From Pseudomonadales bacterium (GTDB lineage Bacteria; Pseudomonadota; Gammaproteobacteria; Pseudomonadales; GM7GCV1), in assembly GCA_965221105.1 (NCBI GenBank), contig OZ244871.1, positions 831,673 through 895,672 of the forward strand: DNA of 64,000 bases, written 5' to 3'. The stretch's first letter is position 1. Each line of letters begins with the position of its first letter. The notes under the pieces were generated by a model, which saw only the letters and a list, made by a program, of their open reading frames with translations, was not told the DNA's origin and made no database searches. A program made the translations under genes and the position numbers. Of the stretch, positions 3,057-23,283 are shown piece by piece.

Positions 3057-3060
3057 AACT

Positions 3061-3404: not shown

Positions 3405-3408
3405 CGGA

Positions 3409-4724: not shown

Positions 4725-4733
4725 TTTCGAATG

Positions 4734-4853: not shown

Positions 4854-4995
4854 AACCGGTCGGCAGCCTGTCTGCAACAGACTCCCGGAAGTCTTAAAAA
4901 CGTGAATAACTGTACGTATCACATCAGTGTCTCACACACCCACATCAATCGCTTGTGTTTTCCAGCACATGGAACAGCACAATCGCACATTATAT

Positions 4996-7864
<2,869 letters not shown>

Positions 7865-8054: not shown

Positions 8055-8067
8055 TTTTTAAAGAACA
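8055..8067 (-). promoter_or_regulatory. boxA-like antitermination element in the tRNA-Ala/23S spacer
   Basis: Minus strand TGTTCTTTAAAAA, compared with the boxA consensus TGCTCTTTAACAA. Confidence 0.55.
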
Positions 8068-8158
8068 TTTGGCTCACAGGCCAAAAAACAACACCCTCAA
8101 AAAGGCCCTGTTTTTTGAACTTGAACCCAGGTCAATCTCAACCTCTGCCAGCATGGGT

Positions 8159-8234
8159 TGGTGGAGCTATGCGGGATCGAACCGCAGACCTCCTGCGTGC
8201 AAAGCAGGCGCTCTCCCAGCTGAGCTATAGCCCC
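8159..8234 (-). tRNA. tRNA-Ala (anticodon TGC)
   Basis: Minus strand GGGGCTATAGCTCAGCTGGGAGAGCGCCTGCTTTGCACGCAGGAGGTCTGCGGTTCGATCCCGCATAGCTCCACCA. Cloverleaf and anticodon were read by eye. Confidence 0.95.
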
Positions 8235-8399
8235 ATTGCCACGCCAACAGAAGCCAACAGAGAGTCTTGCTACCCGGCATCGGGGGCGGCCATTGTACGC
8301 AAATCGCGACCTGAAGCAACATCTTTTTTGCCTGCTCTACAGACGATTAAAACATCATATTGTGACCAGACACATGTCTCGATACTACCGGCTGAGTCA

Positions 8400-8769
8400 T
8401 AATGTAGTGCTCAGGCCGAAAACAGCGGCGGAAATCGTTCGCGAGGCGGTGCTCGAACTCACCTACACAGCGCATGACATGGCACCCTTCGCCCGCGACA
8501 TCGGCTACGTAGACGAAGCTGGCAAAGTGCAACCACCGTTCCCCTGGGACGAAGACCGACGAATTCGCCTCCGCGCGAAACTCGATGCGCTGTATTTCCA
8601 CCTCTACGGCATCACCGAGCGCGACGACATTCGCTACATTTACTCAACCTTTCCCATCGTTGAAAGACAGGAACGCGAGGCCTGGGGTTGCTATCGCTCC
8701 CTCGACCTGTGCCTCGCCTGGTTCAGCGCACTCTCCGCAGGCCGACCAGACGAAACGATCTCTCTTTAA
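8400..8769 (+). pseudogene. C-terminal fragment of a large N6-adenine DNA methyltransferase / type IIG-like R-M enzyme
   Basis: The tail of ORF 8236..8769 reads ..IRLRAKLDALYFHLYGITERDDIRYIYSTFPIVERQEREAWGCYRSLDLCLAWFSAL. I recognise this as the conserved C-terminal tail (LDA.YFHLYG...D..YI..TFPIV.R.E...G.YR) of large methylase/restriction fusion proteins. No N-terminal catalytic part is present. The start coordinate is approximate. Confidence 0.5.
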
Positions 8770-8886: not shown

Positions 8887-8963
<77 letters not shown>

Positions 8964-9156
8964 ATTACGAGCCCACCTTCGCCATCCCCAACCAAGCGCT
9001 ACGAACCCAGCCTGCTCTGAATACGGATCAGGGGATCGTCTGCTTCAACCCTGCTCCATCGAGCCCGGACACTGTTTCCGGTTTCAAGAATCTGGTACTT
9101 GTAACGAGTGGCACAAGCTGCCCGGAGTCCGGAGGCTGGCCCGAACCGGGGCGCGC

Positions 9157-9184
9157 ATTGTACACCCCGGCCTAACCGAGTCAA
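9157..9184 (-). promoter_or_regulatory. putative sigma70 rRNA-type promoter upstream of tRNA-Ile
   Basis: Minus strand TTGACT-N16-TACAAT followed by the GC-rich discriminator GCGCGCCCC, about 190 nt upstream of tRNA-Ile. The architecture matches the 16S promoter at 23256..23283. Confidence 0.5.
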
Positions 9185-9344
9185 GCACAAGGAATGATCC
9201 ACCGTACGGATCCACGCCACCGATCGTGGACAGTCCTGCTGTCAATTCGGGGCCATTCTAGGGAATGGATTGGGGAGACCGGCCCCGTTGATAACAACAT
9301 CCGGAACAGCGAGCGTGATCGCGGACACACTGTCGAAATCACGG

Positions 9345-9461
9345 GAAACAGGCGAGAACCCATTCATGGGCAGAGTCCGAGCCAGTGCATCCCGCTCTTT
9401 GAGCACTTGCACAGACTGGGGCCACCGGGGTTCGTCTCCGGCCGTCAAGCGGAGTCTACGG
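9345..9461 (+). repeat. 117-nt conserved, hairpin-rich IS leader segment (copy 1)
   Basis: About 90% identical to 13385..13504. Contains hairpins CCCA-TTCA-TGGG, GCTC-TTT-GAGC nested in CCAGTGCA/TGCA..CTGG, and CCGGGG-TTCGT-CTCCGG. Confidence 0.8.
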
Positions 9462-9500
9462 CGTTATACGCGCCTGTCATGCTCCCTCGAACAGCTTGGC

Positions 9501-11667
9501 CTGGTGACACTCGAACCGGTGGGCGACCGGGCTGACCGCCATCGCTGGGAGGCGATGATTGACACCCATCATGAATTGGGATGGAATCGGTCACCCGGCG
9601 GCCAGATGCGCTACTGGGTCCGCTCGGCGCGCCAGGGGGTGCTCGGTGGCATCGGCTTTGGGTCAGCGACCTTTCAACTGAAGGCGCGGGATGACTGGAT
9701 TGGCTGGTCGAACGATGCCCGCGCTGAGAACATCACCCGGGTGCTGTGCACCCATCGCTTCCTGGTGCTCCCTGGGGTGCGTGTCCCGGGTCTGGCCTCG
9801 CAGGTTCTGAGGCTGGCCACGGCGCGGGTGGCCGATGACTGGGACGCGCGGTATGCAGTGCGACCGGTGGCTGTGTATACGCATGTCGCCGCACATCACA
9901 GCGGATACTGTTATCAGTGTGCGGGCTGGACGGTGGCGGGACGTACCAGCGGACGCAGAGCAGGGTCCGGGACACCGGGAACCGTGCGGGTGCTGCCGCT
10001 GGAGGCAGACTGGCAGGAGATCCTGTGTCAGCGGCGCCATCGCCCGATCGGGTCGCAGGTCGGTCTCTACGATGGTGCTGAGGTGGACTGGGCGCAGCGG
10101 CAGTATGGCCGCTGCCGCCACCCTGACGGGCGAGTGCGGCGGCGGATCGTCGAGATGGGCCGGCACTGGATGCGGACTCTGGGGGAGGATCTGACGATGA
10201 TCTTCCCGACCAGGGCGGCACAGAAGGCGGCGTACCGCCTGGTCTCGAATCGAGGGGTGACCATGGAGCATATTCTGGACGCACACTATGAAGCGACGGC
10301 TGATCGCTGCCGCCACCCTGACGGCCGAGGTGGCGCTCATGCTTCAGGACACGACAGTGTTGAACGACAGTACCCTGAAGGCCACCGAGGGACTGGTTCC
10401 GAGTGGGGGTGGCGGCACGGGCAGCCGGGGTCTTCTGGCCCATGCCGGTCTGGCGGTGACACCGCAGGGTCTGCCGCTGGGGCTGTTCAGCATGGAGACC
10501 CGGTTCCGTGATGAGCCGGACAGCGCGGGGACGACCGGGACGAGACAGGCACACACGACAGAGCGTCACCGCTGGATCGCCGGCCTTAGACGGGCACGGG
10601 AAGTGGCCGCCGTCTGCCCGGACACCCGGGTGGTGACGGTCTGTGACCGCGAAGGTGACTTCTGGGCGCTGCTGGCGGAGGCGGACCGTCAGGGCGATGC
10701 GCTGCTGGTGCGCGCCAGCCGTTCGGCCCGGCGGCAGGTACTGACCGCCACTGGAGACAGGGCCTGTCTCTGGGCGCAGGTGGCTGCCACCCCGGCGGTG
10801 GCGATCACGGAACTGACCATCCCCGCCGCTGGCGGCACGCGCGCCCGCAGGGACCGCACTGCCCGCCTGGAGATCCGTGCAACGCCGGTGCAGCTGGCAC
10901 CGCCGGACGAGTCCGCAGGCAGTGATCCGCTGCCCCTGTATGCCGTCTCGGCCACCGAGACGGACGCCCCGGAGGGCACTGACCCGCTGCACTGGCTGCT
11001 GGTGACGACCGAGCATCCGACCCAGGATGAACCGGTCGCCATGCACGCCGCCACCCTGCTGGACTGGTACCAGTGCCGGTGGGCGATCGAGACCTGGTTC
11101 CACACCCTGAAAACCGGTCCCCGGATCGGGGATCGCCGGCTGAACCATGGCGATGACCTGCGCACCTGTCTGGCCTGTGATGCGGTAACCGCCGTGCAGG
11201 TCGCCAACCTGACCATGATGGCGCGGGAGCATCCAGAGACCCCCGCCACTGAGGTGCTCCCTGCTGAGGACATCGACCTGCTCCATACCCTGCTGAGATC
11301 ACAGGGTCATCCGATGGTCGAGGCGCGATCCGCCAGCACCACCATTCGGGCGGTGGTCATCGACATCGGGCGCCTGGTTGGTGCCCATCCCTCTGCGCGT
11401 CAGCCACTGCCAGGCACCAAGAAGGTCTGGCAGGGGCTGGAACGGCTCAACTGGGCGGTGCAGGTACGGGATGCTCTTGGCGAGAAACAGCAGAAAGAGC
11501 GCCTGCGGCCTGGTACATCCGAACACCCAGTGACCGGTCACCGGACAGATGACTGGACGACCTGCTCTGGGGTGCTGACGACACCCCGCCCAGCGGGGTG
11601 GCTCTGGATACCAGCCTCACCCCACAGGAACCAGTCCACTCCTGAATCGCGCCCTGAACCGGGCTGA
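9501..11667 (+). pseudogene. DUF4338 (DruA-like domain) fused to Tn5-like DDE transposase, split by a frameshift near 10300
   Basis: Frame 0 (ORF 9270..10511) contains W.AMIDTHHELGW..QMRYWV..RDDWIGWS..THRFLVLPGVRVPGLAS..YCYQCAGW (DUF4338-like), then DWAQRQYGRCRHPDGRVRRRIVEM..AAYRLVSN..ILDAHYEAT (Tn5 N-terminal DNA-binding region). Frame +1 (ORF 10288..11667) continues ..VALMLQDTTVLN..VCDREGDFW..DWYQCRWAIETWFHTLKTG (DDE core). The start codon is uncertain. Confidence 0.7.
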
Positions 11668-12232
11668 CACCCCCCTGTCCTCGACAGATGCTGAAGCACA
11701 ATGGATGTCTGGTGGGTGCTGCCTGCAATCACATATACAAGAATGACCTATTGAAAGGTTACGGATACCCCGATGACGCCCATGATGCCCGGAGGGATGA
11801 GGACGGCGAGGTCGTCACGTTCACCGACGGCGATCTTGTCCATGGGTTTTGGTTGCACGCGGCGAATGTCGGCGTCGCCAGACCGGTCCCTGCACCCGCA
11901 ACATTTCTGAGCCTGGAACCCTCGACCACATATGTGGCGCAGCTTGTTGTCGGTGAGTTGAGGGACCGGGGAGGCAGGGTTGTGACGAATGACGTCGTGA
12001 GCGGTGCCGCCAGCCCGATCAACGGGAAAAAGCCCAAGCCGGTGCTGGCCCAAGTCTGCTTTGAGACGGCCGCCGGCACCAGTTAGCGGTCGCGCTTGCG
12101 GGGGGCCGGCCCGGCCAGCGCATCACGCACAACACCGAGTTCCGGATCCGCTTCGGACAGCACAAGGTCGCCCGGCGGATCACGCATTTCCAGTTCGCGA
12201 TCGAGACCGATGAACCCCAGACTCGCAAGGTC

Positions 12233-12424
12233 ATGGGCAAGACCGGGAAGAAAAGCAGGAAGGCTGGCAGCCGGCAGGTGCGGATCCGCGAGTTGATCCT
12301 CGAGGTGGATGGGCTGGATCGGCTGATCTCCAGCGAGGCCGATCCCACCGAGAACGACCGGGCACTGATGAAGCAGCGACAGGCGGTGCAGCACGAGCTG
12401 TGCCAGGCCGTCAAACCGACTTGA
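12233..12424 (+). CDS. hypothetical small protein (basic N-terminus, helical)
   Basis: 63-aa ORF directly upstream of the coiled-coil membrane ORF. No recognisable family and a weak call. Confidence 0.3.
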   Translation: MGKTGKKSRKAGSRQVRIRELILEVDGLDRLISSEADPTENDRALMKQRQAVQHELCQAVKPT

Positions 12425-12457
12425 AAACCCGGGCATTAGCCGGATAGGATAGGAGCA

Positions 12458-12733
12458 TTGCCGAAAATTGACAATCAAGATCAGGAAAAGCGGCTCCGGG
12501 AGCTGGAAAAGCAGAATCATGAACTGGCGAGAGACATCGCCGTGCTGAGGCAAACCATGGAAACCCACAAGCAGGAATACAAGACCGACATCGCCCGGCT
12601 GGCTGAACAGATGGCCAACTGGAAGACCGACATGGCCCAGAGGGAAAACCGGCAGTTGCTGGCCATCATCGTAGTGGTCGGCGTGGCCACCGCGATACTG
12701 GGTGTGCTGATCGCCGGCATCCCGGCGACATGA
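12458..12733 (+). CDS. small coiled-coil protein with C-terminal transmembrane anchor
   Basis: 91 aa with a TTG start preceded by AGGAG 5 nt upstream. Heptad-like N-terminal 65 aa (EKRLRELEKQNHELARDIAVLRQ..) followed by LLAIIVVVGVATAILGVLIAGI. Confidence 0.5.
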   Translation: MPKIDNQDQEKRLRELEKQNHELARDIAVLRQTMETHKQEYKTDIARLAEQMANWKTDMAQRENRQLLAIIVVVGVATAILGVLIAGIPAT

Positions 12734-12834
12734 ACTCATGCTGCAGCCGTCCGCGCGGAACATCGGCAATATGGATTTTCGCATGTTCGGGAAGTACGAA
12801 AAGTCAACTGGCAGAAGACGATTTTCGGATATAA

Positions 12835-13209
12835 TTGAACGCTGAGTCAATTACAGAGCTTTTGGTCTTTGCATTTACCACTGTACAGCATGGACTCGGA
12901 AAACCGCCTGGCCCACTCTGCCCTCACCAGCGCCGCGATCACCAAGGGTGGTGGCCGTCGACCATGTGCAGGCAGCCCGCGAAGAGATCGCGCCATGAGG
13001 TGGTCGCGCGACTACGGCATCTGCCAGATACCCGCCAACTGGGCGCGCCGGGACAGGCACTGGCCGTCTCTGACTGGCTGACAGAACTCTCGGCGGTCGT
13101 CTGGCACCGCTACGAGATGCCGATACGCGACCTGCTCGAAGCTGAGACCGAGTACCGCAATCCCGCCCAGCAGGACCTGTTTGAGTTCGACGACCCCATA
13201 CCGTTCTGA
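12835..13209 (+). CDS. hypothetical protein / gene remnant (only the C-terminal about 50 aa look protein-like)
   Basis: ORF tail is ..AVSDWLTELSAVVWHRYEMPIRDLLEAETEYRNPAQQDLFEFDDPIPF. The N-terminal part is Arg/Pro-rich and probably not genuine. Confidence 0.25.
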   Translation: MNAESITELLVFAFTTVQHGLGKPPGPLCPHQRRDHQGWWPSTMCRQPAKRSRHEVVARLRHLPDTRQLGAPGQALAVSDWLTELSAVVWHRYEMPIRDLLEAETEYRNPAQQDLFEFDDPIPF

Positions 13210-13344
13210 CACGCCCCTGGCGGCATGGCCTGCCGCCACGTCCTCTCTCAGCCACCCACTCTGTCCCGTCCATGGCAGACGCATCCCGCCTGCCAGGTTC
13301 ACCACTCTGCTCCAGCTCCTACGGATATCTCACCGGCGTAAACA

Positions 13345-13504
13345 CTGTGGGAAATCCCTGCTGAACGGTGGAGAATGAACTCAAGAAACAGGCGAGAACC
13401 CACTTGTGGGTAGAGTCCGAGCCAGTGCATCGCGCTCTTTTTTGAGCACTTGCACAAACTGGGGCTACCGGGGTTCGTCCCCGACCGTCTAGCGGAGTCT
13501 ACGG
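13345..13504 (+). mobile_element. solo left-end fragment of the DUF4338-Tn5-like IS
   Basis: ACACTGTGGGAAATCC resembles the IS end ACACTGTCGAAATCAC at 9327. It is followed, after about 26 extra nt, by a 120-nt copy of the conserved leader (13385..13504). No transposase follows. Confidence 0.6.
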
Positions 13505-13577
13505 TACTACTAACGCAACAACCCGCTGCAACCAGGATGTGGTCGCGGCGACTCCATAAAACAGTCCGCTATAACCA

Positions 13578-14039
13578 TTAGCTACACGGCATCAAATCGT
13601 CGTCATTAATGGTGTAGACAATTTCCCGATAGCTACTGTCATCCAGGGTGACTCTCACCGTGGCGATATCAGCGCTATTGCGGCAATTGTCGTCCTTGGT
13701 GATGATCTGCCAGTGGACTTCGTCAGGCTCGCTACCCGAGTCAAAGGTGAAGGTGGTGGTGTTCTCTCCTGGAGTAGGCCAGACCACATCAGGCTGTGCA
13801 TAGGCGGGGATCGTGTACTCGTTCTGGCAAACGTGGTTGGGAACCGGGTTTCCGCCACCGTCAAAGGCCGCTTCATCTAAGCAGATGGTCTCTTCCGCCA
13901 CAGCGGTGGTTTCGTCGTTCTCACCGCGGACGCCAAGACCGCTTCCAAGACGGATACGTGTGGTAGTGCCGAGAACTTCAAGTTTGGCTACTTTTTGGTC
14001 GGCGATGTCCAGTTCGTGCGCCCAATGGCTTCCCTCCAT
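13578..14039 (-). CDS. hypothetical acidic protein with 4 Cys, no recognisable leader
   Basis: ORF 13578..14168, with the likely start at Met44 (MEGSHWAHELD..). No family recognised. Confidence 0.4.
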   Translation of the reverse strand: MEGSHWAHELDIADQKVAKLEVLGTTTRIRLGSGLGVRGENDETTAVAEETICLDEAAFDGGGNPVPNHVCQNEYTIPAYAQPDVVWPTPGENTTTFTFDSGSEPDEVHWQIITKDDNCRNSADIATVRVTLDDSSYREIVYTINDDDLMPCS

Positions 14040-14236
14040 ACCGGTAAACCTTGCAGGGCGAATAGAGTGTATTGACAGGGTGCGAGATACGGTTGGCGTC
14101 TGGAACAGGGATCGAAATAATCGACAAACCAGGGTAGATTGGCAATGTGGCGCAGACGATGCGCGCACCAGGCTAAGACGGCTTTACCCGAAATATTAAG
14201 ATATACAATATACTAGTTTCAACCGGCAAAACAACG

Positions 14237-14260
14237 GATTTGAAAACTGAGCCACTACCG
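14237..14260 (-). repeat. dispersed 24-nt repeat, copy on minus strand (CGGTAGTGGCTCAGTTTTCAAATCC)
   Basis: Matches copies at 20253, 20286 and 31474 (consensus GGYAGTGNCTCAGTTYNNAAAWYC). Confidence 0.7.
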
Positions 14261-14330
14261 AAAACGATAATCTTTGCCCTGCGGAAAAGTCTGGTTATGA
14301 TGCGCAAAGCTCGGCACAGCAGGCCAATTC

Positions 14331-15077
14331 TTGAACTCGAAACAGGTCAACATTCTCTGCATGAAATGGGGCGACAAATACGGCCCTATCTACGTCAACC
14401 GCCTCTATTCTATGGTGGCGCGCAATCTCAGTCTGCCATTCAGATTCGTATGTCTGACCGACGATTCGGACGGGCTCGTTCCCGACATTGAGAGTTTCCC
14501 CATACCGGAAGTGGGGGCAAACATGGACGATCCAGAGGGACTGAAGCGGGTTCAGGCCTGGAAGAAACTGACGACCCTCCAAAAACCCCTGTACGATATT
14601 TCCGGAACCTGTCTTTTTCTGGATCTGGACATCCTTATCGTCGACAGGATCGACTGTTTCTTCGACCCCGACGGGGAGTTCTTCATCATTCATGAATGGG
14701 ATACCGATGAGACAGTGGGAAACTCGTCAGTGTATCGATTTGAATCCGGAACGCTGGAAGAGGTTCTCAATCACTTTGTCGCACACCGTGATCAGATCGT
14801 GAGCACTTTTGCCAACGAACAGCTCTACCTGTCCAGAAAAGTGGAAGAGATGGGATTGCTGAATTTCTGGCCGAATACATGGTGCCCCAGCTACCGCAAG
14901 CACTGCCTTCCGCACAACCGGATAAAGCGCTGGTTCTCTCCCGGCAGGAAGCCTGAGGGTGCCAGGATTATCATCTTTCACGGTGCACCAGATCCTGAGG
15001 ACGCGATTGCAGGCAAGGGCGATCGGTTTTATCGGCGTCTGGCACCGACGCCCTGGATTGCCGACTACTGGCGATAG
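14331..15077 (+). CDS. putative glycosyltransferase (uncharacterised GT-A-like family)
   Basis: 248 aa. N-terminal ILCMKWGDKYGPIYVNRLYSMVARN and a later DLDILIV acidic motif are recalled from conserved hypothetical glycosyltransferases. Clustered with two other GT genes. Confidence 0.55.
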   Translation: MNSKQVNILCMKWGDKYGPIYVNRLYSMVARNLSLPFRFVCLTDDSDGLVPDIESFPIPEVGANMDDPEGLKRVQAWKKLTTLQKPLYDISGTCLFLDLDILIVDRIDCFFDPDGEFFIIHEWDTDETVGNSSVYRFESGTLEEVLNHFVAHRDQIVSTFANEQLYLSRKVEEMGLLNFWPNTWCPSYRKHCLPHNRIKRWFSPGRKPEGARIIIFHGAPDPEDAIAGKGDRFYRRLAPTPWIADYWR

Positions 15078-16062
15078 TGCGGTGGCCAGAAGAGGGCTCC
15101 CTCCCGGTCCCACCGATTATCGTGCGGACATGGCTCACTGCATCAGCCTGGACTTTCAGGAGGACTAACTCCAGGCGGTGTAATACCCGGGTAACCCAGG
15201 ATGTGCTGACGGCGTTGTATCGGAACGGCCGCCGCACAGTGCCGTTCTGTGTGGTCAGGAAATCCTCGGCAAAGGGAAGGCGAACGATATCCCTCGCCCT
15301 CATGCCGGCAACTTCTTCCTCTGTCATGTAATGAAACGCCTGTACATCACTGCCTACACGACGGCTGGCCAGACGCGAACCAAGGGTCGCCTTCCTGCCG
15401 CGAAAGACCGGTACTTCGGGCACATGCATCACAAAGGGGTGAGCCATCTGCAGCATCTTGGAGAAATGCGATCTGGCCAGCTCGGCATTCGCGGTTTCAG
15501 TTTCCTGAAACTGCCAGCCCACAGTGCGCAACCGCTCGACATGGGCAATCACGACATCGCAGTAATACATGGATACCGGTCGCGGTTTCAGCACCTCCGG
15601 GATACTGTGGTAATAGCCTTGGAATTTTTTCTGTACCCGAACCTGGCGGACAATACTGCTGCGCCGATGGCCCTTCAGAAACACCGGGTTTACAAAGGCG
15701 GCACCAGTACTGGTCGAGAAAAACAGATCCAGTTCCCGCACGTCCCTCCTCTCCAGAGTGCGGACCATCTGGACATCATCCTGCAGGAAAAGAAGATATC
15801 TGGAGGGAGCCCAGGCCAGCGCTTTCTGCATATTCGCATAGAGTCCGCCGTGTCTGCCGGAATCTGTCCCGGAGTGCAACTCCACCAGGCCCGGATAATC
15901 CTGCTCCAGCTGCCTGAGATAGGCACAGGCACCCTCTTCGGTGCTTCCATCATCGAACAGCCGCAGCGGAACAGTATCCGGCATGCAGTGCCACAGGGAT
16001 TCGAGACAGTTTTTCACGCAGTTGCGGCGGTTGTAGGAAAAAACGGCTGCAGCAATGTCCAC
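14971..16062 (-). CDS. glycosyltransferase family 2-like protein
   Basis: 363 aa. N-terminal AAVFSYNRRNCVKNCLESL...LFDDGSTE and a later LQDD match the GT2 pattern. The 3' end overlaps the convergent GT gene by about 100 nt, and the last about 50 aa are low-complexity, so the true stop is uncertain. Confidence 0.6.
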   Translation of the reverse strand: MDIAAAVFSYNRRNCVKNCLESLWHCMPDTVPLRLFDDGSTEEGACAYLRQLEQDYPGLVELHSGTDSGRHGGLYANMQKALAWAPSRYLLFLQDDVQMVRTLERRDVRELDLFFSTSTGAAFVNPVFLKGHRRSSIVRQVRVQKKFQGYYHSIPEVLKPRPVSMYYCDVVIAHVERLRTVGWQFQETETANAELARSHFSKMLQMAHPFVMHVPEVPVFRGRKATLGSRLASRRVGSDVQAFHYMTEEEVAGMRARDIVRLPFAEDFLTTQNGTVRRPFRYNAVSTSWVTRVLHRLELVLLKVQADAVSHVRTIIGGTGREPSSGHRTIASSRQSRASVPDADKTDRPCLQSRPQDLVHRER

Positions 16063-16970
16063 TAGGTCGCCTCAATGCGTTGCAGAAACTCAACGGCCGA
16101 GTCGTCTTTGAGGGTATCCGAATCAATCTTGTGCAGCATGGCAGGCAGCTTTTCGGCATATCTATTGGAGCGACTGTGCACGATGTGGCCCTTGCCAATC
16201 TTGTTGGCAAATTCCTTTTCCGAGCGAGTGTAGTAGTGATTGAGCTGCAGGCTTTCAACGGAATAGAAGGCCTCCGTGCTGCGCTTTTCTGCCGGAAAAA
16301 CCTCACCACGGTCATTGCAGCTTAACCATGCAGCCTGGTTGTCGGTTTGCATGGAATGCACACGCAAGGCTGTCAAATGACAGGGGTCGACAATGCATTT
16401 GAAATTACACAGCCCCGGTTCCGTTGTCATGGGGTTGCGGTGCCTGTGCCTGAAATTAACCACAACGGAACCCCCGGGGTCAGTCCTGTGCCCACTTGTT
16501 CCATACATATGCCAGGGCAGAGACAGGTTTCGACAGCCGCCAAGCGGCTCAAGTGCCGCCGGAATTGAAGTGGCTTTTTTGGGTATCAGGAATTCGTCGA
16601 CATCAATAAAAGCCATCCACCGATAGTCAGCCCCAAAGTTGGACGCAGCGTGGGCATAGGCCAGCACCTGATTGTGGATCTGGCTCCGCCTGAACCGGGC
16701 GTCTCCAACAGTCTGTTTCCAGGGGAGCAGAGTCAGCACTTCGGATGGCAGACAGTTGCGCAGGATGCACTCTGTCGCGTCAGTCGAGCCGTTATCGTAG
16801 ATAAAGAAATGGCGTATGCCGGCTCGATGGTGGAACCCTGCCCATTCTTCAATGTAGCGCGATTCATCCTTGACAATAGCGACCAGGGCTACGCCCTGCC
16901 TTCCGGGATTTTTCTCGGGTGGAACCATTGAAAACCGGCTGATGGTTGTTAACGTGCTGATAAAGCTCAA
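16062..16970 (-). CDS. glycosyltransferase family 92-like protein
   Basis: 302 aa. VAIVKDESRYIEEWAGFHHRAGIRHFFIYDNGSTD and FIDVDEF are typical of the GT92/DUF23-type family. Confidence 0.7.
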   Translation of the reverse strand: MSFISTLTTISRFSMVPPEKNPGRQGVALVAIVKDESRYIEEWAGFHHRAGIRHFFIYDNGSTDATECILRNCLPSEVLTLLPWKQTVGDARFRRSQIHNQVLAYAHAASNFGADYRWMAFIDVDEFLIPKKATSIPAALEPLGGCRNLSLPWHMYGTSGHRTDPGGSVVVNFRHRHRNPMTTEPGLCNFKCIVDPCHLTALRVHSMQTDNQAAWLSCNDRGEVFPAEKRSTEAFYSVESLQLNHYYTRSEKEFANKIGKGHIVHSRSNRYAEKLPAMLHKIDSDTLKDDSAVEFLQRIEAT

Positions 16971-17291
16971 GGAAGACTGGTTTCTGTGGCTACCAGAGCG
17001 CTATAGTAGCATCTTGAAACCTGGTCTTGCAGAACGAAGGTTCCCATCCTCCTGTTGACGAGCCCGAAATCTGGCTGAATTACCTGTACGATCAGGGCCG
17101 ACCGACCGAGCGGTGCAACAGCGGCCAACAACCCCGTGCAATGCGCCGTCGACCTGTGTGCGGGATGGAAGACGATACCCATTGGAAAGCGCACTGCGGA
17201 TCGCGTAATTTGTCACGCGAATTGACCGCACCGAACACAGTCCTGAAGCGGCACAGTGGCAGGATGTTTTTCCCATACAAGGCATTCATCT

Positions 17292-18185
17292 ATGAGTTCC
17301 CTGATTTCAGTACATGAATTGCACAAGTACTTTGGCTCCAACCATGCAGTACGTGGCCTGAGTTTCGAAATCAAACAGGGGATCTGCCTGGGGCTGCTGG
17401 GGCCAAACGGTGCCGGCAAAACAACCACCATTGAAATTCTTGAGGGCATTAAAAGTCCCAGCTCGGGAGAGATTCTGTATCGCGAGCGACCACTGACAGG
17501 CGCACACAAAACCGACTACAAAAGCCGGATCGGCATCCAGTTTCAGGCCACTGCGCTCATGGACTATCTCTCGGTAACAGAGGTTCTGAAGCTTTTTGGC
17601 GGTTTCTATGCTGATCCCATGCCTGTGGACGAGCTTGTTGGACTCTGTGATCTGTCAGAATTTGCCCACCAGCACGCCAACCGGATCTCTGGTGGCCAGC
17701 GACAGCGTCTCCTGCTGGCCATTGCACTGGTCAACAATCCTGAGATTCTTTTCCTGGATGAGCCCACCACCGGGCTGGATCCCCAGTCGCGGCGCAATTT
17801 CTGGACCCTGATCAACCGGATCAAACTGCAGGGTAAAACTGTAGTGTTGACAACCCACTACATGGACGAAGCCCAGACGTTGTGCGACGAACTGCTGATC
17901 GTGGATTACGGCAGCATGGTTGCTCAGGGGTCGCCAGAAGCCCTGCTCGAACAGCACTTCGACAGCCAGCAGGTGTGGCTTGAAGAGATGCCTGGGATCG
18001 AGGTTGAACCCGAACTGGCAATCCCCGGAACCATTGGCGATATGCCGGTGTTTGAGACCCGGAAACCTGCGGATCTCATCGGATATCTCGTCGAAAATGG
18101 CTTCAATATCAACGGGTTGCAGGTGCGATCACCGACACTCGAAGATCTGTTCCTCAAACTGACCGGCCACGCCTTGCGGGACTGA
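17292..18185 (+). CDS. ABC transporter ATP-binding protein
   Basis: Walker A GPNGAGKTT, signature ISGGQRQRL, Walker B ILFLDEPT. Start taken at MSSLISVHEL. Confidence 0.9.
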   Translation: MSSLISVHELHKYFGSNHAVRGLSFEIKQGICLGLLGPNGAGKTTTIEILEGIKSPSSGEILYRERPLTGAHKTDYKSRIGIQFQATALMDYLSVTEVLKLFGGFYADPMPVDELVGLCDLSEFAHQHANRISGGQRQRLLLAIALVNNPEILFLDEPTTGLDPQSRRNFWTLINRIKLQGKTVVLTTHYMDEAQTLCDELLIVDYGSMVAQGSPEALLEQHFDSQQVWLEEMPGIEVEPELAIPGTIGDMPVFETRKPADLIGYLVENGFNINGLQVRSPTLEDLFLKLTGHALRD

Positions 18186-18188
18186 TCC

Positions 18189-19181
18189 GTGCGCACTTTC
18201 CTCGCCCTTGTCATTGCCAGAAACAAGGAGTTCTACCGCGACCGCTCGGCGATGGTCTGGACCATTGTCTTCCCGCTGCTTTTGATCGTCGGCTTCACCT
18301 TTGCCTTTTCCCGGCCCGCGGATGCGATCTTCAAGCTGGGCGTCTGGGGCGACGCGCCTCAGCTGGAACTTCCCGAATATGTGGAACTGGTGACCTATCA
18401 GGACTGGGGCAGGGCAGTGACCCGACTGCGCCACCACGAACTGGATCTCCTCCTCAACCGGGAACAGGGGGTTGCCCTCTACAACGAACTCTCCCCGTCA
18501 AGCGGCGCACTGCTCGATCTGTTGCGTCCCCAGCTGCCACCCGAACTCGAAGTCGAAACCATGCAGGGCAAGGCAGTTCGCTACGTGGAGTGGGCAATAC
18601 CCGGTGTAGTCGGCATGAACATCATGTTCGGCGCCCTCTTTGGTGTGGGTTATGTGATCGTCCGCTATCGCAAGAATGGCGTGTTGAAGCGACTGTCGGC
18701 CGCACCTGTCTCGCCCTTTGCCTTTCTTTCGGCACAGATGCTCTCGCGCTTTATGATCGTCATGATTTCCAACGGAGCCATTCTGGCAGGCTGCGTACTC
18801 ATGCTGGACCTGCGTATGGAGGGAAGCTGGCTGGATCTCACCCTAGCACTCGCTGCCGGGTGCCTGACGATGATCTGCATCGGACTGGTGGTTGCCAGCA
18901 GAGTGAGTAGTGAAGAGCTGGCGGGCGGACTGCTCAATGTACTGAGCTGGCCCATGATGATACTGTCAGAACTCTGGTTTTCCCTGGACAATGCGCCTCA
19001 ATGGATGCAGGCCATTTCCAATCTGCTGCCGCTCACCCACATGGTCAGGGCCATTCGCTCTGTCATGGTTGATGGAGCGGGCCTTATCGGAATCCTGCCA
19101 AACTTGCTCGCACTGGGGTTATTTGGAATCTTCAGCGTGATCTTGGCCGCATGGCTGTTTCGCTGGGAGCCCGGTCAATAG
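18189..19181 (+). CDS. ABC-2 type transporter permease
   Basis: 330 aa with a GTG start 4 nt after the ATPase stop and multiple TM segments. Has the usual ABC-2 layout of a long periplasmic loop after TM1. Confidence 0.85.
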   Translation: MRTFLALVIARNKEFYRDRSAMVWTIVFPLLLIVGFTFAFSRPADAIFKLGVWGDAPQLELPEYVELVTYQDWGRAVTRLRHHELDLLLNREQGVALYNELSPSSGALLDLLRPQLPPELEVETMQGKAVRYVEWAIPGVVGMNIMFGALFGVGYVIVRYRKNGVLKRLSAAPVSPFAFLSAQMLSRFMIVMISNGAILAGCVLMLDLRMEGSWLDLTLALAAGCLTMICIGLVVASRVSSEELAGGLLNVLSWPMMILSELWFSLDNAPQWMQAISNLLPLTHMVRAIRSVMVDGAGLIGILPNLLALGLFGIFSVILAAWLFRWEPGQ

Positions 19182-19221
19182 ACTGGCCGAGTCAAAGGCT
19201 CACCAGGCAGACATAACAAAA

Positions 19222-19245
19222 GGGACTTATATACGAAAGTTGACA
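19222..19245 (+). repeat. left arm of 24-bp inverted repeat GGGACTTATATACGAAAGTTGACA
   Basis: 21/24 identical to the reverse complement of 21322..21345 (GGGAATTACATAGGAAAGTTGACA). Confidence 0.8.
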
Positions 19246-19310
19246 CGTCATAGCGACCTGCTTCGTTCCGCTATTCTTTGACGCTTCACAGGCCGACCAA
19301 TGTCGCCGCC

Positions 19311-19970
19311 TCAACGTCCAGCAGCCCTCGTCCCCAAGGCGAGTATGCTCAAATGCGGCATGATGTCCGCATTGTCCTGATGTCCGCACGCACGGCACCG
19401 GAAGGCGGCCTGCGATGGACGGTTTCCCGTGTGGGCGAACCCGCACACCGGGCACGCACGGCTCGTATGCTTCGGATTCACTTCGACAATATGCCCGGCT
19501 TTGTAGGCGAGCTTCCGCTTCAGGCCATGCCATCCCGTCTCAAGAATGGATTTGTTCAGCCCTGACTTCTGCTTGACGTGCTTGCCGGGTGCTTCTTCCG
19601 TGCCTTTCGCCGAAGCTATCATGCCCTTCGTGTTGAGCTTCAGGGCCACCACCGTTTCGGCTTTGTCGGCGATCTGCTGTGACGTGTGATGCTGCCGGTT
19701 GTCTCGGTAGCATCGGATATTGCGATACACCTTCGACCGGCGCTGCTTTGTGACGTTCCGCCGGTTCGACCCTTTCACCTGCCGCGCCATCCGTCGCTGA
19801 TAGCGACGCTTGCGGGCTTCAAGACGCTGTAGCCGCTGCCCATCCAAACGGTAGATTACGATGCGGCTGTATCTGACGATACGGGTGAATGCGATCGCCC
19901 GGACCGATGTCGTGATACGACGCGTGGATGCTGTCCTCAAACGAAGAACCGAAAAAGGGTACCGCCTCAC
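19311..19970 (-). pseudogene. tnpB: TnpB (IS200/IS605-family OrfB) remnant lacking the N-terminal half
   Basis: 219 aa with ..RKRRYQRRMARQVKGSNRR..ALKLNTKGM..KSGLNKSILETGWHGLKRKLAYKA..VNPKHTSRACPVCG..NRPSQAAFRCRACGHQDNADI. These are the RuvC-II/III and zinc-finger regions only. No tnpA is present. Confidence 0.75.
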
Positions 19971-19980
19971 TTTGAAATTC
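19963..19980 (+). repeat. partial copy of dispersed repeat (CGCCTCACTTTGAAATTC)
   Basis: Aligns to CTCAGTTTGAAAAATTC at 20261..20277. Followed by GTGA as in the 20253 copy. Confidence 0.55.
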
Positions 19981-20252
19981 GTGAGTGTCAGTCCATTTTC
20001 AGGGTCGATGCCGCCGCTGTCACATCCGTTGCGGCCTCCCCGATTACGTCAGTCGTCGTCCCGGATGTCGAACACTACATTTTGGCGCGGATTGTGGGCC
20101 AGGGTGACGATGAGTCGGTTTGCGGGATTGTCCCTGACCGCATTGTTATTCGTCGCCGCCACAAGGTAAGCTTGGGCTGCGGAGCCTGCGGCCACGGTAG
20201 CGCCACACAAAGTGAGTGGACACTGTGGCCATGTCAACCTCTCCTGAAATCT

Positions 20253-20277
20253 GGTAGTGCCTCAGTTTGAAAAATTC
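20253..20277 (+). repeat. dispersed 24-nt repeat copy (GGTAGTGCCTCAGTTTGAAAAATTC)
   Basis: Read directly. Tandem with the 20286 copy. Confidence 0.7.
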
Positions 20278-20285
20278 GTGATTTT

Positions 20286-20309
20286 GGCGGCATCTCAGCT
20301 TGAATTTTC
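20286..20309 (+). repeat. dispersed 24-nt repeat copy (GGCGGCATCTCAGCTTGAATTTTC)
   Basis: Read directly. Confidence 0.65.
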
Positions 20310-20380
20310 AGCCACGGCCCCGTCGGGCCCCTGGCCAGCCCCGCGCCGGAAGAGACCTCCCGTGCCTGGTGTGACGGCCG

Positions 20381-21201
20381 TCAGCGCCGCACATCGACCG
20401 TGACATCACACCATTTGGCATAGGCTGGCGCACCGGCCGCCTCCAGCTCTGGCGTGGGCCAGCTGGGCGGGCCGCAATGACGGTCGGTCCGAAAGGTGGC
20501 CCCATAGCCTGCAGCATTGGCAACGAAAGCAAAGCCCGGGGGCGGCGTGGGGTTGTTCAGGTTCCAACAGCGCTGCACATTGGACGCAGCTGCATGACAC
20601 ACCTTGCCCCAGATCCGCACTTTGAAAATGCCGTTGCTCGGGGTCCGGGTCGGGGTGAACGAGTCACCTTGCTGAGTCGGTGTGTTCCCCGTGTATTGGC
20701 CAGTCAGGGGGGTTACATCGTCACTCGCTTCACTGCACCGCGGGTACCCTTTATTGGCGGTGAACGTCCGGCCCATGAAGGTCACGCTGCGCGAGCATTT
20801 GCGGGTCGTATAGGTCTGGCAGGCGATGGCGATGGGCCCGCCGCGGGAATAGGTGCCGGTCGGGTTGTGGAATTCGACCCCTCCGCTGACTCCCGCACTC
20901 TGGGCGCAATGGGAACCGGGTCCCACGCCGAAGGTCGTCCTGTCGTGAGTCATCTCGACCTCGTCTGGATGGTCCGGTGCAGCCTCGATCGTCAGGTTGG
21001 TGACCGCGCCGGACAAGTTCCGGTTGTTCACCGAGGGGGCAGGAAAGACCAGGTTCTGGTTCAGCCCGGTCACATAAGTAGCAGCGGGCTGCGACACCCG
21101 TGAAAATCTGGCCGCCCGTTCTACCTGTGCCGATGCCGGCAGGGCAAGGACTGTCAGCAGGACGGCGGCGCACGCCTTAGGAAAGAGTCGGGGGGGGGCA
21201 T
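20381..21201 (-). CDS. Cys-rich secreted protein A with poly-C tract after the ATG; out of frame at the current tract length
   Basis: ATG at 21201 is followed by C9. One extra C gives MPPPRLFPKACAAVLLTVLALPASAQ.. in frame with ORF 20381..21097 (8 Cys). With C9 there is a stop after 15 codons. Confidence 0.6.
21190..21198. repeat. homopolymer G9 (+ strand) / C9 (coding strand)
   Basis: Counted directly in the sequence. Confidence 0.95.
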
Positions 21202-21300
21202 GTCATGCATTGTTGGTCCACGGGGCAGATACCTTCTTGAGTGCAGTAAAAAAGCTTGAGTGATACGTCAACCAGTTGTACCGCCACAAAAATGATGGGA

Positions 21301-21327
21301 TTTATAAAAGGAAAGGAAGGCTGTCAA
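21301..21327 (-). promoter_or_regulatory. possible promoter reading into secreted-protein gene A (TTGACA-N15-TATAAA)
   Basis: The -35 TTGACA is the inner end of the right inverted repeat. The spacer is only 15 nt, so this is a weak call. Confidence 0.35.
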
Positions 21328-21345
21328 CTTTCCTATGTAATTCCC
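21322..21345 (-). repeat. right arm of 24-bp inverted repeat
   Basis: Reverse complement is GGGAATTACATAGGAAAGTTGACA. Pairs with 19222..19245. Confidence 0.8.
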
Positions 21346-21346
21346 T

Positions 21347-21371
21347 AAAAAACCCGCAGCCGGGGCCGCGG
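21347..21371 (-). terminator. Rho-independent terminator about 90 nt downstream of 16S rRNA
   Basis: Minus strand CCGCGGCC-CC-GGCTGCGG followed by GTTTTTT. Confidence 0.7.
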
Positions 21372-21457
21372 TTGTTGTGTCTGCGAAGACGACCCTCGCT
21401 TACAATCCGATCAAAACAATGCGTGTGGATGCTTGACTGAGAGTCAGGTATTTCGTT

Positions 21458-22981
<1,524 letters not shown>

Positions 22982-23190
22982 TCTTTTACCTCTTCTCAAG
23001 AGAAAGAGGAGACCGTGTTGCAGAGACCCTGCATACGATCCAAAAACCCGGCCAAACGCCAATTTGAACCTAAATAAAATCAAGGCCAAATCTGATGGCC
23101 ATTAATTCGGAATGAATTGATGGATATCTTGCGTTTGATATCGTGTATACCACAACAGCTCAGCAAGCACCCACACGCATTGCTTGATCA

Positions 23191-23205
23191 GATTGTTAAA
23201 GAACA
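23191..23205 (-). promoter_or_regulatory. boxA antitermination element in 16S leader
   Basis: Minus strand TGTTCTTTAACAATC. Confidence 0.6.
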
Positions 23206-23255: not shown

Positions 23256-23283
23256 ATTCTAATGATTCGCAAACCTGAGTCAA
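23256..23283 (-). promoter_or_regulatory. rRNA promoter (TTGACT-N16-TAGAAT plus GC-rich discriminator)
   Basis: Minus strand TTGACTCAGGTTTGCGAATCATTAGAATACGCACCCC, about 275 nt upstream of 16S. Confidence 0.6.

What the first reader, a model, noticed from the sequence alone, without database searches (positions are those of the whole stretch)
8963..21458. Split rRNA operon: 16S is separated from tRNA-Ile-tRNA-Ala-23S-5S by 12.5 kb, with its own terminator and a second rRNA-type promoter
All rRNA and tRNA genes are on the minus strand in canonical order, but 12.5 kb lies between the 16S 3' end (21458) and tRNA-Ile (8963).
- About 90 nt after 16S, once the 3' half of the 16S processing stem has passed, there is a strong intrinsic terminator (21347..21371).
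- About 190 nt upstream of tRNA-Ile there is TTGACT-N16-TACAAT plus a GCGCGCC discriminator (9157..9184). This closely mirrors the 16S promoter TTGACT-N16-TAGAAT plus ACGCACC (23256..23283).
- Both the 16S and 23S processing stems and the boxA elements look intact, so both halves appear functional.
- The intervening DNA carries genes on both strands (ABC exporter, glycosyltransferases) plus IS4, TnpB and IS remnants.
This points to an IS-mediated rearrangement that has since been stabilised, not a fresh insertion.
Basis: partly seen in the sequence, partly recalled or inferred. Interest (0 to 1): 0.6.

Follow-up and report, generated by a model that had tools for sequence, protein, structure and literature searches.

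The report
Family-wide split ribosomal RNA operon
In this sponge-associated bacterium the single set of ribosomal RNA genes really is cut into separately promoted pieces by 12.5 kb of other DNA. The same cut is present in every relative of its family that could be checked, so it is an old example of the already known 'unlinked rRNA genes', not an assembly error or a fresh transposon hit.

Summary
Observation confirmed. On the minus strand lie 16S (22979-21458), tRNA-Ile (8963-8887), tRNA-Ala, 23S and 5S. The 16S to tRNA-Ile gap is 12.49 kb. This is the only rRNA set in a closed 2.77 Mb genome.

The split is not a misassembly. All 7 other family genomes where it can be judged have the same co-oriented 16S ... 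tRNA-Ile-tRNA-Ala-23S layout, with gaps of 6.5-40.6 kb. Other families of the order, and outgroups with the same tyrS-16S neighbourhood, have linked operons.

The terminator after 16S is conserved in 7 of 8 genomes, with compensatory stem changes. The promoter before tRNA-Ile (GC-rich discriminator) is present in 7 of 7.

Both processing stems and the boxA elements before 16S and 23S are intact. RNase III, NusB, DksA and RelA/SpoT genes are present.

'IS-mediated' is not supported. The IS4, TnpB and repeat debris is specific to this genome. Relatives carry surface-sugar genes in the gap instead: LPS-core heptose, pseudaminic-acid-type, or glycosyltransferases.

This is a new lineage of a known kind (Brewer et al.). 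The scan has noted split rRNA loci in many other genomes, mostly CPR bacteria. Interest is modest.

The parts
24228..25517 (-). tyrS (tyrosyl-tRNA synthetase), the ancestral upstream neighbour of the rRNA operon
   Evidence: Pfam tRNA-synt_1b E 5e-81. tyrS sits directly before a linked 16S-tIle-tAla-23S-5S in outgroup loci L015, L018, L048, L065 and L075, and before 16S in G002 and G003.
23256..23283 (-). 16S promoter: TTGACT-N16-TAGAAT, followed by discriminator ACGCACCC
   Evidence: Scan gives 10/12. Conserved in G003, G002, G006 and both G004 copies.
23193..23205 (-). boxA TGTTCTTTAACAA in the 16S leader
   Evidence: Sequence. Core is invariant across 7 aligned leaders.
23146..23197 (-). 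5' strand of the 16S processing stem
   Evidence: Duplex with the trailer at -70.9 kcal/mol, against -43.9 +/- 4.2 for shuffled trailers.
21458..22979 (-). 16S rRNA gene, the only copy in the genome
   Evidence: Rfam RF00177, 1569.8 bits, full length. Single BLAST hit in the genome.
21401..21452 (-). 3' strand of the 16S processing stem
   Evidence: Conserved in the relatives' trailers.
21347..21371 (-). Intrinsic terminator ending the 16S unit
   Evidence: Top terminator hit, -13 kcal/mol. A homologous hairpin plus T-run is present in 7 of 8 family genomes; 98% of cells pair and 4 of 8 pairs show compensatory changes.
19221..21346 (.). 2.1-kb element bounded by 25-nt inverted repeats, abutting the terminator's T-run. 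It carries a TnpB fragment (19311-19970, minus strand) and a poly-C secreted-protein gene (20381-21097, minus strand).
   Evidence: Inverted repeat I1, 88% complementary. Pfam Cas12f1-like_TNB and OrfB_IS605. Positions 20299-21198 are 99% identical to G000:317777-318675. The end sequences recur elsewhere in the genome. No target-site duplication seen.
17256..19181 (+). ABC-2 type exporter: ATPase 17256-18185 and permease 18189-19181. It is antisense to the rRNA genes.
   Evidence: Pfam ABC_tran 5e-30 and ABC2_membrane 8e-25. NCBIfam DrrA/DrrB-like subfamily.
14971..16970 (-). Two glycosyltransferase genes: GT92-like/GT2_4 at 16062-16970 and GT2 at 14971-16062
   Evidence: Pfam. Homologues lie in the 16S/tRNA-Ile gap of G002 at 41-59% amino-acid identity.
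14331..15077 (+). 248-aa protein of unknown family that recurs in the gap of G002 and G007
   Evidence: No Pfam or NCBIfam hit. 35-42% identity to gap ORFs of G002 and G007.
9270..13504 (.). Insertion-sequence debris. It comprises a frameshifted IS4-type transposase (9270-10511 and 10288-11667, plus strand), a 117-nt direct repeat (9345-9461 and 13385-13504), and a 4-copy repeat (12902-13394).
   Evidence: Pfam DruA, Tnp_DNA_bind and DDE_Tnp_1. Repeats. Not present in relatives' gaps.
9157..9184 (-). Promoter of the tRNA-Ile unit: TTGACT-N16-TACAAT, followed by discriminator GCGCGCCC (9156-9149)
   Evidence: Scan gives 10/12. TTGAC-N17-TAAAAT/TAAGAT plus (G/A)CGCGCC is conserved in G003, G006, G007, G005 and G009. 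G002 has TTGATT-N17-TAGAAT plus GCGCCACC 36 nt before the tRNA.
9082..9091 (-). Degenerate boxA-like ATTCTTGAAA in the tRNA-Ile leader
   Evidence: Sequence. G003, G006, G005 and G009 have a clear G(T/C)TCTTTAA at the equivalent place.
8887..8963 (-). tRNA-Ile(GAT), the only such gene in the genome
   Evidence: ARAGORN on the window and on the whole genome.
8374..8769 (+). Antisense remnant (C-terminal 131 aa) of a roughly 1350-aa type IIG restriction-modification enzyme gene. It lies in a ~555-nt insertion between tRNA-Ile and the tRNA-Ala promoter.
   Evidence: About 80% identity to the C-termini of 1340-1360-aa proteins carrying PF07669/PF02384, named 'restriction endonuclease' or 'N-6 DNA methylase'. 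The spacer is 84-170 nt in G003, G005, G006, G007 and G009, and 390 nt in G002.
8292..8319 (-). Third promoter, before tRNA-Ala: TTGCTT-N16-TACAAT plus GGCCGCCC, with an A-tract upstream
   Evidence: GTAnAAT and CGCCC are invariant in the A5 alignment. A -10 hexamer plus GC-rich discriminator was found in all 7 genomes scanned. Absent from outgroup tIle-tAla spacers.
8159..8234 (-). tRNA-Ala(TGC)
   Evidence: A second tRNA-Ala(TGC) exists elsewhere in the genome.
8055..8087 (-). Hairpin (8085-8068) followed by boxA TGTTCTTTAAAAA (8067-8055) ahead of 23S
   Evidence: Sequence. The hairpin is listed.
4994..7864 (-). 23S rRNA gene, the only copy, flanked by leader and trailer processing stems
   Evidence: Rfam RF02541, 2889 bits. 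Single genome hit. Stems.
4736..4851 (-). 5S rRNA gene
   Evidence: Rfam RF00001, 90 bits.
4698..4728 (-). Strong terminator after 5S
   Evidence: 13-bp hairpin at -23.9 kcal/mol followed by a T-run. Listed.
3848..4575 (.). End of an IS66-type element present in more than 40 copies in the genome, just beyond the 5S terminator
   Evidence: 43-55 BLAST hits per 500-nt tile. Pfam DDE_Tnp_IS66.

Best explanation
This is an ancient, family-wide case of unlinked rRNA genes. In the ancestor of this small family, foreign DNA was lodged in the spacer between 16S and tRNA-Ile of the single tyrS-linked rRNA operon. The family is uncultured, sponge-associated and gammaproteobacterial, and comprises 11 genomes in 5 genera.

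The locus now works as separate transcription units:
1. Promoter, boxA, 16S with both strands of its RNase III stem, then an intrinsic terminator.
2. A second rRNA-type promoter driving tRNA-Ile.
3. A third rRNA-type promoter between tRNA-Ile and tRNA-Ala. Alone or together with read-through from unit 2, it drives tRNA-Ala, boxA, 23S, 5S and a terminator.

All three promoters carry a GC-rich discriminator. The inferred mechanism is that 16S and 23S/5S output is kept matched by common growth-rate/stringent (ppGpp-DksA) control rather than by co-transcription.

The gap itself is a fast-turnover island that mostly holds cell-surface sugar genes. In this genome it has additionally filled with transposon debris.

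Shown here: the layout, its age, and the conservation of the terminator, the promoters, the stems and boxA. Inferred: promoter activity, termination efficiency and co-regulation.
For: Layout and copy number
- Positions are given.
- There is a single copy of 16S, 23S, 5S and tRNA-Ile(GAT) in a closed single-contig genome.

Age of the split
- Co-oriented gaps: 40.6 kb (G003), 6.5 kb (G002), 12.1 kb (G006), 15.1 kb (G005), 12.0 kb (G009), 7.9 kb (G007), and more than 7.7 kb (G001).
- G004 is fully dispersed.
- In the order-level outgroups where both genes lie on one contig, 16S and 23S are 335-790 nt apart.
- tyrS is followed by a linked operon in five outgroup loci.

Terminator
- It occupies the same position in 7 of 8 genomes.
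- 98% of cells pair, 4 of 8 pairs show double changes, and 0 of 500 shuffles reach the covariation score.
- Slid controls collapse to 27-48% paired.

Promoters
- The promoter table for all three sites is; alignments are.
- Outside the tRNA itself, the best-conserved 12-column block upstream of tRNA-Ile is the -10/discriminator.
- Outgroup spacers lack both internal promoters.

Processing and regulation
- Processing stems are shown.
- Genes are present for RNase III, NusB, DksA-type proteins and RelA/SpoT.
- The antisense ABC exporter genes lie between 16S and tRNA-Ile, so one long sense transcript is implausible.
Against: - No transcript data exist, so promoter use and termination are inferred from sequence and conservation only.
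- This genome's tRNA-Ile leader has lost a clean boxA. Antitermination for 23S would then rest on the boxA at 8067-8055.
- The -35 of the tRNA-Ala promoter is weak and varies between genera (TTGCTT, TGGCAT, TGGTTT).
- G002 shows no obvious terminator after 16S.
- Only 11 genomes represent the family, most of them draft metagenome bins.
- The origin by in-place insertion cannot be separated cleanly from duplication followed by reciprocal loss.
Confidence: 0.8

Rival explanations
1. Assembly chimera: rRNA and IS repeats caused the assembler to join 16S and the tRNA-23S-5S block wrongly, and the true operon is contiguous.
For: rRNA genes and IS copies are classic misassembly sites. The genome holds more than 40 copies of one IS next to the 5S gene.
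Against: - There is only one rRNA set, so no second copy exists to mis-join.
- The genome is a single closed contig.
- Seven independently assembled relatives show the same split on single contigs.
- The junctions carry dedicated, conserved signals: a terminator and promoters.
Confidence: 0.02
2. A recent IS-mediated insertion or rearrangement specific to this genome split a previously intact operon.
For: - IS4-type transposase debris starts about 90 nt upstream of the tRNA-Ile promoter.
- An inverted-repeat-bounded element abuts the 16S terminator.
Against: - The split is shared by five genera whose gaps hold no transposase domains among the ORFs tested.
- The IS pieces are fragments with near-identical copies elsewhere in this genome only.
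- No target duplication flanks the inverted-repeat element.
- Order and orientation are unchanged.
Confidence: 0.05
3. Duplication with reciprocal loss: an ancestor had two co-oriented rRNA operons a few kb apart. The upstream copy lost tRNA-23S-5S and the downstream copy lost 16S, leaving an rRNA promoter and leader in front of tRNA-Ile.
For: - The tRNA-Ile promoter shares TTGACTC, the 16-nt spacing and a hairpin-then-boxA leader with the 16S promoter.
- Order relatives have 1-4 operons.
- G004 has two 16S genes but one 23S.
Against: - The shared motifs are all functional elements, so convergence would also produce them.
- No remnant of a 16S gene or of its processing stem is evident in the tRNA-Ile leaders.
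- The model does not explain the extra promoter before tRNA-Ala.
Confidence: 0.15

Closest known systems
Unlinked rRNA genes as surveyed by Brewer et al. (bioRxiv 10.1101/705046, later ISME J 2020)
   Same: - The 16S and 23S genes are more than 1500 bp apart.
- The trait is conserved within a lineage.
- rRNA copy number is low (here one).
- It occurs in a slow-growing or host-associated organism.
   Different: - In Gammaproteobacteria, the only conserved unlinked clade that paper's figure legend names is Buchnera; this is a marine, sponge-associated family of the Cellvibrionaceae/Porticoccaceae/Halieaceae order.
- RNase III, whose loss they found associated with unlinking, is retained here, along with long processing stems.
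Buchnera aphidicola 16S unit unlinked from 23S-5S (Munson et al. 1993, cited in PMC7761764; details from my own knowledge)
   Same: - It is a gammaproteobacterial symbiont with a single rRNA set.
- 16S has its own promoter and terminator, and 23S-5S lies elsewhere.
   Different: - Buchnera's two units are far apart in a tiny, IS-free genome.
- Here order and orientation are kept and the gap is only 6.5-40 kb.
- Here the tRNA-Ile/tRNA-Ala pair stays with 23S, and the genome is IS-rich and 2.8 Mb.
Split rRNA loci of CPR/Patescibacteria noted repeatedly by this scan (e.g. e1-2710037, e1-1307033)
   Same: - The ancestral gene order is kept, with protein genes wedged between 16S and 23S.
- There is a terminator after 16S, and each unit has its own promoter.
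   Different: - The phylum is different.
- No leader mini-gene or terminator 'attenuator' is seen ahead of the 23S unit here. No terminator-like site was flagged in 8964-9156, and the leaders are not conserved beyond boxA.
E. coli rrn P1/P2 tandem promoters with boxA antitermination (established knowledge; Paul et al. 2004 as cited in PMC7761764)
   Same: - -10 hexamers are followed by GC-rich discriminators.
- An A-rich stretch lies upstream of the tRNA-Ala promoter.
- boxA lies after a hairpin.
- Two successive promoters feed the 23S unit.
   Different: - The two promoters are separated by a whole tRNA gene, and in this genome by a further 555-nt insertion.
- They serve only the large-subunit half.

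Membership tests
Unlinked rRNA genes (sensu Brewer et al.) | The 16S and 23S genes are separated by more than 1500 bp | tested here: met
   13,593 bp lie between the 16S 3' end (21458) and the 23S 5' end (7864). The threshold is quoted.
Unlinked rRNA genes (sensu Brewer et al.) | The arrangement is genuine (not an assembly artefact) and conserved in the lineage | tested here: met
   A closed genome with a single rRNA set. The same split is seen in all 7 other assessable family genomes, while other families of the order are linked.
Unlinked rRNA genes (sensu Brewer et al.) | Associated trait, not defining: loss of RNase III | tested here: not met
   A gene with a PF14622 match (122.8 bits) is present at G000:2352236-2352598. 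Processing stems are intact.
Canonical single-transcript rrn operon | 16S, spacer tRNAs, 23S and 5S are contiguous and co-transcribed, with no terminator in between | tested here: not met
   A 12.5 kb gap containing antisense genes, and a conserved terminator after 16S. Transcription itself was not measured.
rRNA-type (stringently controlled) sigma-70 promoter | -35 and -10 hexamers at 16-17 nt spacing, followed by a GC-rich discriminator | tested here: met
   All three sites meet this, in this genome and in relatives.
rRNA-type (stringently controlled) sigma-70 promoter | Actual transcription start and response to ppGpp/DksA | not testable with these tools
   Only the presence of DksA-type and RelA/SpoT genes could be shown.
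rrn antitermination leader (boxA/Nus system) | A boxA close to the consensus lies ahead of each rRNA gene | tested here: met
   boxA at 23205-23193 before 16S and at 8067-8055 before 23S. nusB is present.
rrn antitermination leader (boxA/Nus system) | boxA in the leader of the tRNA-Ile promoter | tested here: inconclusive
   It is clear in G003, G006, G005 and G009. This genome has only ATTCTTGAAA, an 8 of 10 match.
IS-mediated rearrangement | The same IS, or its ends and target duplications, sits at the breakpoints, and the event is shared by the genomes that share the split | tested here: not met
   The IS debris is specific to this genome. No transposase domains were found in the relatives' gap ORFs tested. 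No target duplication is present at 19221/21346.

The most novel reading that the evidence does not exclude
The gap inside the rRNA locus is not just tolerated junk. It may be a dedicated swap site for cell-surface sugar gene cassettes.

In every genus it holds a different glycan set: LPS-core heptose genes, pseudaminic-acid-type genes, or GT2/GT92 glycosyltransferases with an ABC-2 exporter. It is flanked by the most conserved DNA in any genome (16S on one side, tRNA-Ile/Ala and 23S on the other). These flanks could serve as homology arms that let even diverged symbionts exchange surface-antigen cassettes by recombination.

On this reading, the three stringent-type promoters would be what makes this arrangement affordable.
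Probability: 0.12. Interest if true: 0.6.

Novelty: new member of a known kind. Interest (0 to 1): 0.3.

Why it matters
The finding adds a free-standing, non-insect gammaproteobacterial lineage to the list of clades with conserved unlinked rRNA genes.

It also offers unusually clean comparative evidence for how such a locus is wired:
- a covarying terminator placed just after the 16S processing stem;
- two internal rRNA-type promoters, absent from the outgroup spacers examined, that share a GC-rich discriminator with the 16S promoter.

There are two practical consequences:
- 16S-ITS-23S long-amplicon methods will miss this family.
- Metagenome binning cannot link its 16S to its 23S through an ITS.

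The recurring glycan content of the gap is a testable lead on how sponge symbionts vary their surface.

Tried and rejected
- **Rfam 23S search across relatives.** It failed twice on the server. I replaced it with a BLAST search using the 23S sequence.
- **Whole-leader duplex energies.** The 16S stem stands out at about 6 sd from shuffles. For 23S the score is barely better than a GC-rich unrelated leader, so I rely on the visible complementary segments instead.
- **Neighbour-capture hypothesis.** The idea was that the heptose cluster was an ancestral neighbour of the operon, captured by an inversion. It is rejected: in outgroups hldE lies 50 kb to megabases from any rRNA operon.
- **Target-site duplication** around the inverted-repeat element 19221-21346. 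None was found: ATAACAAA on one side, AAAAAACC on the other.
- **Unnamed ORFs.** Pfam and NCBIfam gave nothing for ORFs 11688-12086, 12083-12850, 13578-14168, 14331-15077 and 20381-21097.
- **Leader attenuator** of the kind earlier notes report in CPR bacteria. No terminator-like site lies in the tRNA-Ile leader, and nothing is conserved beyond boxA.
- **Organism name.** The tyrS scan returned only relatives at 67% identity or less, so the family remains unnamed here.
- **Homology versus convergence** of the 16S and tRNA-Ile leaders. I did not test this statistically, because all the shared positions are functional motifs.

Full report
**What is there**

Rfam and ARAGORN confirm, all on the minus strand:
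- 16S at 22979-21458
- tRNA-Ile(GAT) at 8963-8887
- tRNA-Ala(TGC) at 8234-8159
- 23S at 7864-4994
- 5S at 4851-4736

The 16S to tRNA-Ile gap is 12,494 bp. The window lies in a closed, single-contig genome of 2.77 Mb and 55% GC. That genome holds exactly one 16S, one 23S, one 5S and one tRNA-Ile(GAT). There is therefore no second operon to compare with, and none that could have been mis-joined.

The consensus scan ranks the hairpin at 21371-21354 plus GTTTTTT as the best terminator in the region. It folds at -13 kcal/mol.

- TTGACT-N16-TAGAAT at 23283-23256
- TTGACT-N16-TACAAT at 9184-9157, followed by GCGCGCCC

boxA is TGTTCTTTAACAA at 23205-23193. It leads straight into the 5' strand of a roughly 50-bp near-perfect duplex whose 3' strand lies at 21452-21401, just before the terminator. 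A hairpin and a second boxA, TGTTCTTTAAAAA at 8067-8055, precede 23S. The 23S leader and trailer pair both beside the gene and in an outer stem. A strong terminator follows 5S (4728-4698, -23.9 kcal/mol).

One claim is only half true. The leader of the tRNA-Ile promoter in this genome has no clean boxA, only ATTCTTGAAA at 9091-9082.

**Is the split real, and how old is it?**

The held collection has 11 genomes of this family, in 5 genera. Wherever the two halves can be placed, they are co-oriented on one contig but far apart:

| Genome | Gap |
|---|---|
| G003 (closed genome, same genus) | 40.6 kb |
| G002 | 6.5 kb |
| G006 | 12.1 kb |
| G005 | 15.1 kb |
| G009 | 12.0 kb |
| G007 | 7.9 kb |
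| G001 | at least 7.7 kb of non-16S DNA before tRNA-Ile |

G004 is dispersed further: two 16S genes, one 23S without tRNAs, and tRNA-Ala on another contig.

In other families of the same order where both genes lie on one contig, 16S and 23S are 335-790 nt apart.

The gene upstream of 16S is tyrS, with an M23 peptidase gene beyond it. tyrS also sits before 16S in G002 and G003. In five outgroup loci it is followed within about 0.5 kb by a linked 16S-tRNA-23S operon, with 5S also found in three of them.

The 16S end of the locus is thus in its ancestral place, and order and orientation are unchanged. The split dates at least to the family ancestor. This rules out misassembly and a fresh insertion. 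It fits an insertion into the 16S/tRNA-Ile spacer better than a rearrangement.

**Comparative test of the terminator**

In 7 of 8 family genomes an A-tract, a GC hairpin and a T-run follow the 3' strand of the 16S stem within a few tens of nucleotides. The stems differ between genomes, for example CCGCAGC/GCTGCGG, CCGGAGC/GCTCCGG and GCCACGGC/GCCGTGGC.

On the alignment, 98% of cells pair and 4 of 8 pairs change on both sides. No shuffle of 500 reaches the covariation score, and sliding the partner by one to three columns drops pairing to 27-48%. G002 has no obvious terminator.

**Comparative test of the promoters**

Upstream of tRNA-Ile the flanks are unalignable. A block reading CTTGAC-N17-TAAAAT/TAAGAT followed by (G/A)CGCGCC is nevertheless shared by G003, G006, G007, G005 and G009. 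G002 has TTGATT-N17-TAGAAT followed by GCGCCACC, 36 nt before the tRNA. Apart from the tRNA itself, this is the best-conserved block in that alignment. Four relatives follow it with a hairpin and G(T/C)TCTTTAA.

Between tRNA-Ile and tRNA-Ala, the A5 alignment (8 sequences, G001 only in part) shows GTAnAAT and CGCCC as invariant. A motif scan found an A-tract, a variable -35, a 16-nt spacer, TA(G/A/C)AAT and a GC-rich discriminator in all 7 genomes scanned. In this genome the element is TTGCTT-N16-TACAAT plus GGCCGCCC at 8319-8292.

Outgroup operons have 16-121 nt between the two tRNAs and nothing comparable. No comparable promoter is visible in the outgroup 16S/tRNA-Ile spacers either. The family therefore has two internal promoters that the outgroups examined lack.

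**How it most likely works**

The locus is read as separate units:
1. 16S with its own promoter, boxA, complete RNase III stem and terminator.
2. tRNA-Ile from the second promoter.
3. tRNA-Ala, boxA, 23S and 5S from the third promoter, probably with read-through from the second.

An antisense ABC exporter operon lies between 16S and tRNA-Ile, so a single sense transcript is implausible.

All three promoters have the GC-rich discriminator typical of growth-rate and stringently controlled rRNA and tRNA promoters (established knowledge). The genome keeps the relevant genes: RelA/SpoT, DksA-type proteins, NusB and RNase III. I infer that the two ribosomal halves are matched by common regulation instead of co-transcription. 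Promoter activity, termination efficiency and co-regulation have not been shown.

**What fills the gap**

In this genome, reading in the rRNA direction:
- A 2.1-kb element bounded by 25-nt inverted repeats abuts the terminator's T-run (19221-21346). It carries a TnpB fragment and a poly-C secreted-protein gene. 900 bp of it is duplicated at 99% identity elsewhere in the genome.
- An ABC-2 exporter pair, on the opposite strand.
- GT92-like and GT2 glycosyltransferases.
- A 248-aa unknown protein.
- Repeat debris and a frameshifted IS4-type transposase reaching to about 90 nt from the tRNA-Ile promoter.

Relatives differ:
- G006, G009, G008 and G005 share a syntenic gene set. Domain-typed in G006, it reads as an LPS-core set: GmhA-, GmhB- and HldE-type heptose genes, a GT9 heptosyltransferase, two GT1 genes, an asparagine-synthase-like gene and a sulfotransferase.
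- G007 holds a pseudaminic-acid-type set: NeuB, PseB-like dehydratase, DegT aminotransferase, cytidylyltransferase and a GT28-like gene.
- G002 holds GT1, GT2 and two GT92-like genes homologous to those here.
- G003 has one GT1, plus TonB receptor and sugar-acid dehydrogenase genes among the ten largest ORFs of its 40.6-kb gap.

No transposase domain appeared among the relatives' ORFs tested. In outgroups, hldE lies far from any rRNA operon. The IS material is therefore a late, genome-specific addition, and 'IS-mediated' origin has no support. What recurs is surface-glycan cargo. This suggests, but does not show, that the site acts as a variable glycan island.

**Origin**

In-place insertion is the simplest reading. 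A rival is duplication followed by reciprocal loss. The tRNA-Ile promoter shares TTGACTC, its spacing and a hairpin-then-boxA leader with the 16S promoter, and G004 has two 16S genes. All shared positions are functional motifs, however, and no 16S remnant is visible in the leaders.

**Comparison with what is known**

Unlinked rRNA genes are well documented. They are defined by a gap over 1500 bp, conserved in clades, and linked to low copy number, slow growth and host association (PMC7761764).

This locus meets that definition. It differs in three ways:
- The lineage is a marine gammaproteobacterial family. The only conserved unlinked gammaproteobacterial clade that paper's figure legend names is Buchnera.
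- It keeps RNase III and long processing stems.
- Gene order is retained.

The scan has already logged split rRNA loci in more than 100 other genomes, mostly CPR bacteria. The leader attenuators reported in several of them are not seen here.

**Verdict**

This is a new member of a known kind, of modest interest.

Noticed in passing
window 8332-8886 (ORF 8374-8769, plus strand): A ~555-nt insertion between tRNA-Ile and the tRNA-Ala promoter is the antisense 3' end of a type IIG restriction-modification gene. It encodes the last 131 aa of a ~1350-aa protein, at about 80% identity to full-length proteins carrying PF07669/PF02384. No paralogue exists in this genome.
   Followed up: yes
L004:13232-13976 (relative G002, inside its 23S gene): The 23S gene of relative G002 is interrupted near position 1899 by a ~720-nt group I intron (Rfam RF00028, 47.6 bits, E 8e-11). 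The intron carries a LAGLIDADG homing-endonuclease ORF (Pfam E 2e-23). This genome's own 23S is uninterrupted.
   Followed up: partly
L004:10689-10899 (relative G002): Two tandem tRNA-Ile-like copies follow the real tRNA-Ile gene. Each has a ~20-nt insertion in the anticodon region, and ARAGORN and Rfam do not call them tRNAs.
   Followed up: no
window 3848-4575: The end of an IS66-type element lies just beyond the 5S terminator. The element is present in more than 40 copies in this 2.77 Mb genome, a sign of heavy IS expansion.
   Followed up: partly
window 19221-21346: A 2.1-kb unit is bounded by 25-nt inverted repeats (88% complementary) and inserted exactly at the end of the 16S terminator's T-run. 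It holds a TnpB fragment and a poly-C secreted-protein gene. The end sequences recur at three other genomic places, flanking shorter units. No target duplication was seen.
   Followed up: partly
window 2037-3741 (minus strand): A HipBA-type toxin-antitoxin set (HTH 3409-3741, HipA N-terminal domain 3066-3404, HipA C-terminal domain 2037-3056) lies downstream of the rRNA locus. HipA is split into two ORFs.
   Followed up: no
genomes G000-G004 and G007 compared with G005, G006, G008-G010: The heptose-pathway gene hldE was found only in two of the five genera. There it lies inside the rRNA gap. It was not found with this query in this genome or its genus, which suggests a heptose-less LPS core.
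   Followed up: partly
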